From Escherichia coli (GTDB taxonomy: Bacteria; Pseudomonadota; Gammaproteobacteria; Enterobacterales; Enterobacteriaceae): a stretch of 64,000 bases of DNA. Below, in pieces: positions 20,907 through 21,005 of the stretch (position 1 is its first letter; each line of letters opens with the position of its first letter). The stretch is from the NCBI RefSeq assembly GCF_003334385.1, contig NZ_QOWN01000005.1, one strand, 5' to 3'. Below the pieces are notes generated by a model. That model was given only the letters and a program-made list of their open reading frames with translations. It did no database searches and was not told the DNA's origin. The position numbers and the translations under genes were made by a program.

Positions 20907-21005
20907 CCGGATGCGGCGTGAACGCCTTATCCAGCCTACAAAATTGTGCAAAATCAATGGATTGCACAGCTAGCGTAGGCCTGATAAGCGTAGCGCATCA
21001 GGCAG
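20907..21005. repeat. REP/BIME repetitive extragenic palindromes (two REP units in opposite orientation)
   Basis: gccggatgcggcgtgaacgccttatccagcctaca and gtaggcctgataagcgtagcgcatcaggcag match the REP consensus I recall. Confidence 0.8.

What the first reader, a model, noticed from the sequence alone, without database searches (positions are those of the whole stretch)
20907..21005. Second REP pair between convergent gcd and cueO
Seen in sequence: two REP units in opposite orientation, followed by a 9-bp-stem hairpin at 21028-21049. They probably act together as the 3' end structures of both transcripts.
Basis: partly seen in the sequence, partly recalled or inferred. Interest (0 to 1): 0.2.

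Follow-up and report, generated by a model that had tools for sequence, protein, structure and literature searches.

The report
Known BIME-1 repeat after gcd
This is an ordinary, long-known kind of E. coli intergenic repeat: a BIME-1, made of two REP palindromes around a linker with an IHF-binding motif. It sits in the tail of the gcd gene beside a separate conserved hairpin, and nearly half of E. coli strains lack it.

Summary
A Y-type REP lies at 20905-20939 (+) and matches a published reference at 33 of 35 bases. An inverted Z1-type REP lies at 20974-21003 (-) and matches at 30 of 30. A perfect 9-bp hairpin lies at 21028-21049. All sit between convergent gcd and cueO in K-12-like E. coli.

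It is the conserved "L" motif and carries a perfect IHF consensus at 20952-20964. That makes the element a single BIME-1 (also called RIP or RIB), a family described in the 1990s.

The REP pair and the hairpin are separable. The hairpin is present in essentially all of 5,426 complete E. coli genomes. About 44% have only the hairpin in a 46-bp spacer, and about 2% have a 77-bp spacer from a microhomology deletion. About 52% carry the BIME-1, in two linker versions. In about 3% IS621 has inserted at its canonical target inside the Z1 REP.

The BIME lies only on the gcd side of the hairpin. Published Term-seq lists no 3' end in this spacer. It reports Rho-dependent termination of gcd-strand transcripts inside antisense cueO.

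Verdict: real, ordinary and already known. The joint "3' end of both transcripts" reading is only partly supported.

The parts
18477..20867 (+). gcd (quinoprotein glucose dehydrogenase) coding sequence; its stop codon ends at 20867
   Evidence: TIGR03074, 1194 bits. MG1655 b0124 is at 138835-141225, mapped by K-12 coordinate = 159702 - window position. The ORF lister's 18459 TTG is an upstream extension.
20868..20904 (+). Left flank of the BIME in the gcd 3' UTR. It contains the outer inverted-repeat arm TGCTGACAA (20881-20889) and the 8-mer TTCATGCC (20901-20908, which runs 4 bases into the Y REP) used in the microhomology deletion.
   Evidence: Inverted pair I4; alignment A1. This flank is absent from the 46-bp allele and present in the 77-bp allele.
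20905..20939 (+). Y-type REP unit. It carries one stem-disrupting change, CCAGCC for CCGGCC, which gives C.A on the + RNA and G.U on the - RNA.
   Evidence: 33/35 identical to the published Y reference; consensus scan with 1 mismatch. Hairpin energy is -15.1 kcal/mol on + and -18.7 on -. Rfam naRNA4 partial hit at 34.8 bits, below the gathering score of 59.5.
20940..20974 (+). L linker of BIME-1 (35 bp; 20974 is also counted as the last base of the published 30-nt Z1 reference). It can form a small hairpin itself.
   Evidence: Rfam ES036/CssrF gives 30.9 bits, E 9e-5, against a gathering score of 37.6. The model consensus AAAuUUGUGCAAAUUCAAUAAAUUGCAGGAaAUACGUAGGCCU aligns along the whole linker. 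The linker also aligns with L linkers at K-12 5601-5635 and window 47262-47294. Hairpin energy is -8.1 kcal/mol, z -1.9.
20952..20964 (+). IHF consensus site AATCAATGGATTG (WATCAANNNNTTR, 0 mismatches)
   Evidence: One search finds 6 matches in the window against 2.1 expected. Two of the six lie in BIME linkers. The chance of a hit in one given 35-bp linker is about 1e-3 (my arithmetic).
20974..21004 (-). Z1-type REP unit, inverted with respect to the Y unit
   Evidence: 30/30 identical to the published Z1 reference; 0 mismatches in the consensus scan. Hairpin energy is -13.2 kcal/mol on - and -12.9 on +. It pairs with the Y unit (inverted pairs I1 and I2).
20975..20985 (-). Exact natural IS621 target ATCAGGCCTAC inside the Z1 REP; empty in this window
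   Evidence: locates the exact match. PMC11208160 gives the target sequence. The site is occupied by IS621 in ETEC4091 (junctions read). The 71-nt junction is 100% identical in 186 genomes.
21005..21027 (+). Right flank between the BIME and the hairpin, with the outer inverted-repeat arm TTGTCATCA (21014-21022)
   Evidence: pair I4; alignment A1. This flank is absent from both short alleles.
21028..21049 (.). Perfect 9-bp, GC-rich hairpin (ATGCCCGGA gaga TCCGGGCAT), independent of the BIME. It lies 19 nt from the cueO stop. It has no U-tract on either strand.
   Evidence: It is invariant in all four E. coli alleles aligned, in two lineages about 93% identical to the window and in E. albertii. 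The segment containing it is matched in 5421/5426 genomes. The terminator scan does not call it.
21069..22619 (-). cueO (multicopper oxidase) coding sequence; its stop codon is at 21069-21071
   Evidence: NF008205, 983 bits; MG1655 b0123 at 137083-138633.
21226..21260 (+). Approximate place where gcd-strand read-through transcripts end, inside antisense cueO. It holds a small terminator-like hairpin with a TTTTCTG tail (21226-21253) and the published Rho-termination coordinate (K-12 138442 = window 21260).
   Evidence: Terminator scan. Adams et al. 2021 Supplementary file 2 gives Rho score 3.44, p 5.4e-6, computed from 800-nt windows, so the position is coarse. The + strand from 21020 to 21260 has more C than G.

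Best explanation
The 99-bp feature is one copy of the E. coli BIME-1 repeat, also called RIP or RIB. It consists of a Y-type REP, the conserved 35-bp L linker with an IHF-binding motif, and an inverted Z1-type REP. It belongs to the genome-wide REP/BIME repeat population. That population is thought to be spread and reshaped by the REP-associated Y1 transposase TnpA-REP.

The element sits in the 3' untranslated region of gcd, 38 nt after the stop codon. It lies upstream of a separate, invariant hairpin that abuts cueO.

Shown here: its identity and anatomy; that it is old, being present at this site in E. albertii and in a lineage about 93% identical to the window; that it is dispensable, being absent from about 46% of E. 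coli while the hairpin stays; and that it is a natural landing site for IS621.

Inferred from the family, not shown at this locus:

- On DNA, IHF binds and bends the L linker between the two REPs.
- On gcd RNA, the element folds into two REP stem-loops or one long Y:Z1 helix. This slows 3'-to-5' exonucleases, so it stabilises upstream gcd mRNA, and it may pause or attenuate RNA polymerase.

Actual termination of gcd transcripts is at least partly Rho-dependent and occurs further on, in antisense cueO. The hairpin, not the BIME, is the candidate shared 3' structure of the convergent pair.
For: - REP identity: consensus scan with 0.02 hits expected; 33/35 and 30/30 identity to the published Y and Z1 references.
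- Linker identity: perfect IHF consensus in the linker; linker aligned to the Rfam ES036 consensus at 30.9 bits, E 9e-5; linker aligned to other L linkers.
- Family definition: y + z1, single copy, long conserved linker L that frequently carries an IHF site (PMC3333891).
- Structure: the whole spacer folds at -82.2 kcal/mol on + (z -5.2) and -77.3 on - (z -5.5). As single-stranded DNA the BIME forms a long hairpin of -25.4 kcal/mol, z -3.7.
- Dispensability: 2836 genomes cover at least 80% of the query, which includes the 95 genomes with the 77-bp spacer. 2375 have the 46-bp hairpin-only spacer.
- Age: the BIME-1 is at the same site in L005, about 93% identical to the window, and in E. albertii L017.
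- Transcription: Adams 2021 report a Rho region at K-12 138442 (-) and no curated 3' end in the spacer. Read-through RNA is C-rich and G-poor.
- IS621: it occupies the Z1 target in 186 genomes.
Against: - No experiment at this locus was available. IHF binding, RNA 3' ends at nucleotide resolution and mRNA half-life are all untested here.
- The ES036 match is below Rfam's gathering score.
- The K-12 Y unit carries a stem-weakening C.A mismatch on the gcd-sense RNA.
- Loss of the element in nearly half of the strains argues that any function at this site is weak or conditional.
- The absence of Term-seq peaks may only reflect low expression.
- The Rho coordinate comes from 800-nt windows. Termination could therefore begin at the BIME or hairpin rather than beyond them.
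- RefSeq NC_000913.3, as held here, lists no repeat feature at this position. My recollection that GenBank/EcoCyc annotate a RIP/REP element there could not be checked.
Confidence: 0.8

Rival explanations
1. One reading: the REP pair and the downstream hairpin work as one composite, bidirectional 3'-end module that ends or protects both the gcd and the cueO transcript.
For: - All three palindromes lie in one 201-bp spacer between convergent genes.
- The whole spacer is unusually structured on both strands.
- REPs are reported to act as terminators and mRNA stabilisers (PMC3333891 introduction).
- Stem-loop elements without a U-tract between convergent genes are described as bidirectional terminators (bioRxiv 10.1101/2022.10.23.513370).
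- Citrobacter amalonaticus and an unnamed enterobacterial contig have REP-like pairs ending in a T run at the same place and no separate hairpin.
Against: - The hairpin occurs without the BIME in about 46% of E. coli.
- For cueO the BIME is distal to the hairpin.
- No curated 3' end is listed in the spacer, and read-through on the gcd strand is Rho-dependent.
- The terminator scan calls none of the three palindromes.
Confidence: 0.2
2. It is a purely selfish or neutral repeat copy with no function for the host at this locus. It would be a relic of REP/BIME proliferation that persists or is lost by drift.
For: - Presence/absence polymorphism is close to 50:50, and both alleles occur within the same phylogroups. 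K-12 and HS differ, and so do 536, Nissle and 81009.
- It has been deleted by 8-nt microhomology.
- Two different linker versions occupy the same site.
- It tolerates IS621 insertion in 186 genomes.
- The K-12 Y unit carries a stem-breaking substitution.
Against: - It has been retained at the same site since before the E. coli / E. albertii split.
- The K-12 version keeps a perfect IHF consensus.
- The Z1 unit is identical to the family reference.
- This reading is compatible with the best explanation as far as identity goes. It differs only on whether there is any local effect.
Confidence: 0.35
3. It acts on DNA topology: a gyrase-binding site or supercoil barrier that relieves the positive supercoils building up between convergent gcd and cueO.
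For: - REP/BIME elements bind gyrase and are proposed topological insulators (PMC3333891).
- Gyrase cleavage sites are enriched in BIME-2, and y-type REPs are cut preferentially (PMC6379681).
- The position between convergent genes is where positive supercoils accumulate.
Against: - The enrichment reported in PMC6379681 is for BIME-2, which has tandem y/z2 units. This is a single y/z1 BIME-1.
- The same paper notes a negative association between gyrase sites and IHF-occupied sites.
- Half of the strains lack the element.
Confidence: 0.1
4. It encodes a small RNA of its own, of the REP-derived nucleoid-associated type (naRNA4) or an ES036/CssrF-like sRNA.
For: Sub-threshold Rfam hits to naRNA4 (34.8 bits) and ES036 (30.9 bits). 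PMC4550694 states that most REPs are transcribed (abstract).
Against: - Both hits are below the gathering scores of 59.5 and 37.6.
- The naRNA4 hit covers only one REP hairpin of a 77-nt model.
- No promoter-like site lies in the region.
- The hits are explained by those Rfam models having been built on REP/BIME sequence.
Confidence: 0.05

Closest known systems
BIME-1, also called RIP (repetitive IHF-binding palindromic element) or RIB (reiterative ihf BIME), of E. coli. Sources: Gilson/Bachellier classification; Boccard & Prentki 1993 and Oppenheim et al. 1993 (the last two cited from my own knowledge); definition read in PMC3333891.
   Same: One y and one z1 REP in inverse orientation with the CTAC/GTAG ends facing a long conserved L linker. 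IHF consensus in L. A single copy, not a tandem array. Extragenic, at the 3' end of a transcription unit.
   Different: Nothing structural. The K-12 version has a perfect IHF consensus, whereas the L consensus (ATTCAA) has one mismatch to it. The Y unit carries a CCAGCC variant. IHF binding at this copy was not tested.
REP mRNA stabilisers, for example malE-malF (Newbury, Higgins and co-workers, 1987; Khemici & Carpousis 2004), and BIME-associated Rho-dependent attenuation (Espeli et al. 2001). All cited from my own knowledge.
   Same: Stable REP stem-loops in a 3' UTR, downstream of a stop codon. Rho-dependent termination is detected on the same strand nearby.
   Different: There are no half-life or attenuation data for gcd. 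The element is optional in the species.
BIME-2 and atypical BIMEs (tandem y/z2 arrays; gyrase sites)
   Same: Same Y unit and the same general palindromic organisation. An example lies in the same window at 47178-47377.
   Different: Z1 rather than Z2, a long L linker rather than the short S linker, and one copy rather than tandem copies. This element is therefore not a BIME-2.
Bidirectional terminators between convergent genes (Ju et al. 2019, as summarised in bioRxiv 10.1101/2022.10.23.513370)
   Same: The 21028-21049 hairpin is a GC-rich stem-loop without a U-tract between convergent genes, and it is conserved regardless of the BIME.
   Different: The locus is not named in the text I could read, and no 3'-end data were available for it. 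This comparison concerns the hairpin, not the REP pair.
REP targets of IS621 (IS110 family, bridge-RNA-guided recombinase)
   Same: The Z1 unit contains the exact natural target ATCAGGCCTAC. IS621 is found inserted at the CT core of that target in natural isolates.
   Different: The site is empty in this window.
REPs that regulate translation termination (REP within 15 nt of a stop codon; Liang et al. 2015 from my own knowledge; criterion restated in the PMC12306157 abstract)
   Same: A REP downstream of a stop codon.
   Different: The Y REP starts 38 nt after the gcd stop. The Z1 REP is 64 nt from the cueO stop. The criterion is not met.

Membership tests
REP (E. coli palindromic unit) | A 29-37 nt imperfect palindrome matching the Y, Z1 or Z2 consensus | tested here: met
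   33/35 identity to the Y reference and 30/30 to the Z1 reference. The two-arm scan gives 1 and 0 mismatches, with 0.02 hits expected by chance.
REP (E. coli palindromic unit) | A conserved GTAG/CTAC tetranucleotide at the foot of the palindrome | tested here: met
   CTAC at 20936-20939 and GTAG at 20975-20978. The feature is described in PMC3333891.
REP (E. coli palindromic unit) | Extragenic location and high copy number in the genome | tested here: met
   The element lies between the gcd and cueO stop codons. A 701-nt query containing it gives a median of 35 places per genome, capped at 40 pieces per record. There are 6 true units in this window and 15 in the first 100 kb of MG1655.
BIME-1 / RIP / RIB | One y and one z1 REP in inverse orientation | tested here: met
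   Y on the + strand and Z1 on the - strand. Definition in PMC3333891.
BIME-1 / RIP / RIB | A long conserved L linker between the two REPs | tested here: met
   The 35-bp linker aligns along its full length to the Rfam ES036 consensus (30.9 bits, E 9e-5, below the gathering score of 37.6). It also aligns to the L linkers at K-12 5601-5635 and window 47262-47294.
BIME-1 / RIP / RIB | An IHF consensus sequence in the linker | tested here: met
   AATCAATGGATTG matches WATCAANNNNTTR with 0 mismatches.
BIME-1 / RIP / RIB | A single copy, not a tandem array | tested here: met
   There are only two REP units in the spacer.
BIME-1 / RIP / RIB | IHF protein actually binds the element | not testable with these tools
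   No supplementary tables of the IHF ChIP-seq paper PMC3333857 are held.
Intrinsic (Rho-independent) terminator, considered for the hairpin 21028-21049 | A GC-rich stem-loop | tested here: met
   A perfect 9-bp stem; -17.4 and -16.0 kcal/mol on the two strands.
Intrinsic (Rho-independent) terminator, considered for the hairpin 21028-21049 | A U-rich tract directly after the stem | tested here: not met
   The tails are AUAUUUCC (+) and UAAACUGA (-). The scan does not call the hairpin in the long or the short allele.
Intrinsic (Rho-independent) terminator, considered for the hairpin 21028-21049 | A mapped RNA 3' end at the tail | tested here: inconclusive
   Adams 2021 list no curated Term-seq 3' end between K-12 138400 and 138999. 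Expression may have been too low, and the other 3'-end datasets were not held.
BIME-2 | Tandem y/z2 units with short S linkers | tested here: not met
   The second unit is Z1 (30/30 to the Z1 reference, 29/37 to Z2). The linker is 35 bp and there is one copy.
Rfam naRNA4 (RF02564) and ES036/CssrF (RF02751) | A score at or above the family's gathering threshold | tested here: not met
   34.8 bits against 59.5, and 30.9 bits against 37.6.
REP acting on translation termination | A REP within 15 nt downstream of the stop codon | tested here: not met
   The gap is 38 nt from the gcd stop. The criterion is stated in the PMC12306157 abstract.

The most novel reading that the evidence does not exclude
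The presence/absence polymorphism may have a functional effect. With the BIME-1, the gcd stop codon is 160 nt from the invariant hairpin and the 3' UTR carries a large structured, IHF-binding element. Without it, as in 44% of strains, the hairpin starts only 5 nt after the gcd stop. There it would have to be unwound by the terminating ribosome, and the two convergent polymerases would meet in a 46-bp spacer. The alleles could then differ in gcd translation termination, mRNA stability or read-through into antisense cueO. That would be a natural switch of gcd/cueO expression created by gain, loss, linker replacement or IS621 occupation of one BIME. Nothing here tests expression.
Probability: 0.1. 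Interest if true: 0.35.

Novelty: already known. Interest (0 to 1): 0.12.

Why it matters
It matters little as a discovery. BIME-1/RIP elements have been catalogued in E. coli K-12 for about thirty years, and this copy has the textbook anatomy.

The check has three uses:

- It corrects the annotation from "REP pair" to "BIME-1 with an IHF site".
- It separates the repeat from the truly conserved hairpin.
- It shows that the repeat cannot be an obligatory part of either gene's 3' end, because nearly half of the species lacks it.

The locus is a tidy natural series that could serve as test material for what BIMEs do to neighbouring genes. The series comprises a full BIME-1 in two linker versions, a microhomology deletion, a hairpin-only spacer and an IS621-occupied copy.

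Tried and rejected
- **Fuzzy-regex REP scan.** It timed out. I replaced it with a two-arm Hamming scan.
- **RefSeq NC_000913.3 annotation.** No repeat features are listed at this position. My recollection that GenBank/EcoCyc annotate a RIP/REP element here stays unverified.
- **Rfam.** Nothing reaches a gathering score. The naRNA4 and ES036 hits are sub-threshold echoes of REP/BIME sequence, so an sRNA-gene reading was rejected.
- **3'-end datasets.** Dar & Sorek 2018, Conway 2014 and Grunberger 2022 have no supplements held. Ju et al. 2019 is not held. The RepRanger supplements do not mention the genes. Only Adams 2021 was usable.
- **IHF ChIP-seq tables** (PMC3333857). They are not held.
- **Two literature searches.** One with min_terms=1 was wasted on unrelated "RIP" papers. 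The other, for cueO + gcd + REP, found nothing relevant.
- **Scan of the genome collection for the hairpin 22-mer.** It found only two Escherichia lineages plus two unrelated chance hits. It therefore gave no covariation test of the hairpin.
- **Outgroups.** Citrobacter carries its own REP-like palindromes and no E. coli hairpin. The ancestral state beyond Escherichia could therefore not be fixed.
- **Weak REP-like hit at 12449-12484.** It lies inside an ORF, so I rejected it as chance.
- **Rejected classifications.** BIME-2 membership, the intrinsic-terminator label for the hairpin, and the "REP within 15 nt of the stop" mechanism. In each case a defining feature was tested and not met.

Full report
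**Setting.** The window is K-12-like E. coli. The 701 bases around the finding are 100% identical to K-12 strains. The + strand ORF ending at 20867 is the membrane PQQ glucose dehydrogenase Gcd. The - strand ORF ending at 21069 is the multicopper oxidase CueO. This matches b0124 and b0123 of MG1655, with K-12 coordinate = 159702 minus window position. The spacer 20868-21068 is 201 bp.

**Observation.** A two-arm REP consensus scan finds a unit at 20906-20939 (+) with 1 mismatch and one at 20975-21003 (-) with 0 mismatches. Shuffles of the window give a mean of 0.02 hits. I compared both units with the three REP references printed in the bridge-RNA paper (PMC11208160). The + unit is a Y REP (33/35 identical). 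The - unit is a Z1 REP (30/30 identical). The hairpin at 21028-21049 is a perfect 9-bp stem with a 4-nt loop. Its energy is -17.4 and -16.0 kcal/mol on the two strands, with z about -4.6 to -4.8. The only other true REP cluster in the window is at 47178-47377. A weak hit at 12449 is inside an ORF and is chance.

The 35 bp between the two REPs are not arbitrary spacer.

- They contain a perfect match to the IHF consensus WATCAANNNNTTR at 20952-20964. The window has 6 matches against 2.1 expected, and two of the six lie in BIME linkers.
- The linker aligns over its full length to the consensus of Rfam ES036/CssrF at 30.9 bits, E 9e-5, below the gathering score of 37.6.
- It also aligns to the linker of the Y-L-Z2 element at K-12 5565-5669 and to the one at window 47262-47294.

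Ton-Hoang et al. (PMC3333891) define BIME-1 as z1 plus y, occurring as single copies. The two REPs are separated by a long, well-conserved linker L that frequently carries an IHF site. Every sequence-level criterion is met. The element is a BIME-1, also known as RIP or RIB. It is not a BIME-2, because it lacks a Z2 unit, a short linker and tandem copies.

**Structure.** The spacer as RNA is much more stable than shuffles on both strands: -82.2 kcal/mol (z -5.2) and -77.3 kcal/mol (z -5.5). The BIME folds either as two REP stem-loops or as one long Y:Z1 helix with the L hairpin at its tip. As single-stranded DNA it forms the same long hairpin (-25.4 kcal/mol, z -3.7). The K-12 Y unit has CCAGCC for CCGGCC. 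This gives a C.A mismatch in gcd-sense RNA and a G.U pair in the opposite sense.

**The BIME and the hairpin are separable.** An alignment of four E. coli alleles shows the hairpin and everything on its cueO side are invariant. The gcd side varies. The spacer is 201 bp in the K-12 type and 195 bp in the 536/E06 type, which is also a BIME-1 but has a different 29-nt linker. It is 77 bp in CEA601S and 46 bp in strain 81009, where the hairpin starts 5 nt after the gcd stop.

Counts among 5,426 complete genomes:

| Allele | Genomes |
|---|---|
| At least 80% of the 701-nt query covered (includes the 77-bp allele, which covers 83%) | 2836 |
| 46-bp allele, contiguous | 2375 |
| 77-bp allele (Nissle 1917, ATCC 25922, 83972) | 95 |
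| K-12-type core | 2664 |
| 536-type core | 162 |

The counts depend on thresholds and are approximate. The segment holding the hairpin is found in 5421 of 5426 genomes. The 77-bp allele is what a deletion between the two 8-nt direct repeats TTCATGCC of the 536-type allele would leave. Both states occur within single phylogroups. K-12 and HS differ in group A, and 536, Nissle and 81009 differ in B2.

**Age.** A lineage about 93% identical to the window (L005) has a diverged BIME-1 at the same site. Another such lineage (L006) has the short allele. E. albertii (L017) has lost most of gcd. It keeps the flank, a BIME-1 with the 29-nt type of linker, and the hairpin. The BIME-1 therefore most likely predates the E. 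coli / E. albertii split, and the short alleles are most likely losses. Recombination between lineages could blur this. Citrobacter amalonaticus and an unnamed enterobacterial contig carry their own REP-like pairs in the same spacer. These end directly in a T run, and there is no E. coli-type hairpin. The convergent spacer is thus a recurrent home for REPs.

**Transcript ends.** The hairpin lacks a U-tract on both strands (AUAUUUCC and UAAACUGA). The terminator scan does not call it in the long or the short allele. Adams et al. 2021 (PMC7815308) list no curated Term-seq 3' end between K-12 138400 and 138999 in three growth conditions. Their table of Rho-termination regions has an entry at 138442 on the gcd strand, antisense to cueO, with Rho score 3.44 and p 5.4e-6. 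That is window position about 21260, some 210 nt beyond the hairpin. The score compares 800-nt windows, so the position is coarse. The gcd-sense RNA from 21020 to 21260 has more C than G. A small terminator-like hairpin with a TTTTCTG tail lies at 21226-21253. At least part of gcd transcription therefore passes through both the BIME and the hairpin. For cueO the BIME lies beyond the hairpin. Hairpins without U-tracts between convergent genes have been described as bidirectional, collision-assisted terminators. This locus is not named in the text I could read.

**How it most likely works.** Identity is shown. Function is inferred from the family.

- On DNA, IHF would bind and bend the L linker between the two REPs.
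- On gcd mRNA, the element would act as a 3'-UTR structure that slows 3' exonucleases and may pause polymerase ahead of Rho-dependent termination. The supporting work (Newbury/Higgins, Espeli et al. 2001, Khemici & Carpousis 2004) is cited from my own knowledge.
- The translation-termination mechanism, which needs a REP within 15 nt of a stop codon (criterion), does not apply. The gap here is 38 nt.

Loss in about 46% of strains means any local function is weak or conditional. A neutral-passenger reading is a serious rival.

**Seen in passing.** The Z1 unit holds the exact natural target of IS621, ATCAGGCCTAC. In strain ETEC4091, IS621 sits exactly there. On the REP strand the junctions read ATCAGGC-CT-[IS621]-CT-AC. 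The 71-nt junction is 100% identical in 186 genomes.

**Verdict.** This is a real, non-chance feature of a long-known kind. The proposed joint 3'-end role for both transcripts is only partly supported. Interest is low.

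Noticed in passing
window 20975-20985 (-); L009 3381-4652: The Z1 REP contains the exact natural IS621 target ATCAGGCCTAC. 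In strain ETEC4091, IS621 (the bridge-RNA recombinase element) is inserted at its CT core. The 71-nt BIME/IS621 junction is 100% identical in 186 of 5,426 complete E. coli genomes. Strain MS 119-7 has IS621 plus an IS3-family element here.
   Followed up: yes
window 47178-47377: A second REP cluster lies upstream of mutT, in the order Z2(-), Y(+), Z2(-), Y(+). The linker at 47262-47294 is L-like and carries the IHF consensus TATCAATGAGTTA, so this is an atypical BIME (a BIME-1/BIME-2 chimera). It also holds an exact IS621 target at 47178-47188 (-).
   Followed up: partly
window 20940-20974 versus L004 641-669: Two different BIME-1 versions occupy the same gcd-cueO site in E. coli. The K-12 type has a 35-nt linker (about 2664 genomes). 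The 536/E06 type has a 29-nt linker (about 162 genomes), and E. albertii shares this type. The REPs and flanks are nearly identical while the linkers differ at many positions. This suggests linker replacement, by gene conversion or TnpA-REP activity, rather than point mutation.
   Followed up: partly
L003 566-650 (77-bp allele); window 20901-20908 and 21024-21031: The 77-bp spacer of Nissle 1917, ATCC 25922 and 83972 (95 genomes) is what a deletion between two 8-nt direct repeats TTCATGCC would leave. One repeat overlaps the start of the Y REP and the other overlaps the start of the hairpin. In the K-12 allele the right-hand copy reads TTAATGCC.
   Followed up: yes
window 20881-20889 and 21014-21022: The locus-specific flanks of the BIME form an outer inverted repeat, TGCTGACAA / TTGTCATCA, nearly symmetric about the BIME. 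My rough estimate of the chance probability is about 0.02. It may be an older hairpin into whose loop the BIME was inserted. Both arms are absent from the 46-bp allele.
   Followed up: no
L017 (E. albertii GCA_025802815.1), reverse complement of 2720-3300: In this E. albertii genome most of gcd is deleted and only fragments remain. cueO is followed by hpt, yet the BIME-1 and the hairpin are retained.
   Followed up: partly
L013 3067-3149; L015 3052-3213; L014 3121-3304: Citrobacter amalonaticus, an unnamed enterobacterial metagenome contig and a Citrobacter genome with the CueO shared by C. freundii-group species each have their own species-type REP-like palindromes directly after cueO, ending in a T run. 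In L015 there are two tandem pairs. The E. coli hairpin is absent from all three.
   Followed up: partly
window 21226-21260 (+), inside antisense cueO: A small terminator-like hairpin with a TTTTCTG tail lies just upstream of the published Rho-termination coordinate for the gcd strand (K-12 138442). The 240 nt before it are C-rich and G-poor on that strand.
   Followed up: partly
L007 6820-6841; L008 4046-4067: The exact 22-mer of the hairpin also occurs in a Lachnospiraceae MAG and in Aquabacter cavernae, with unrelated flanks. These are probably chance matches of a GC-rich palindrome.
   Followed up: no
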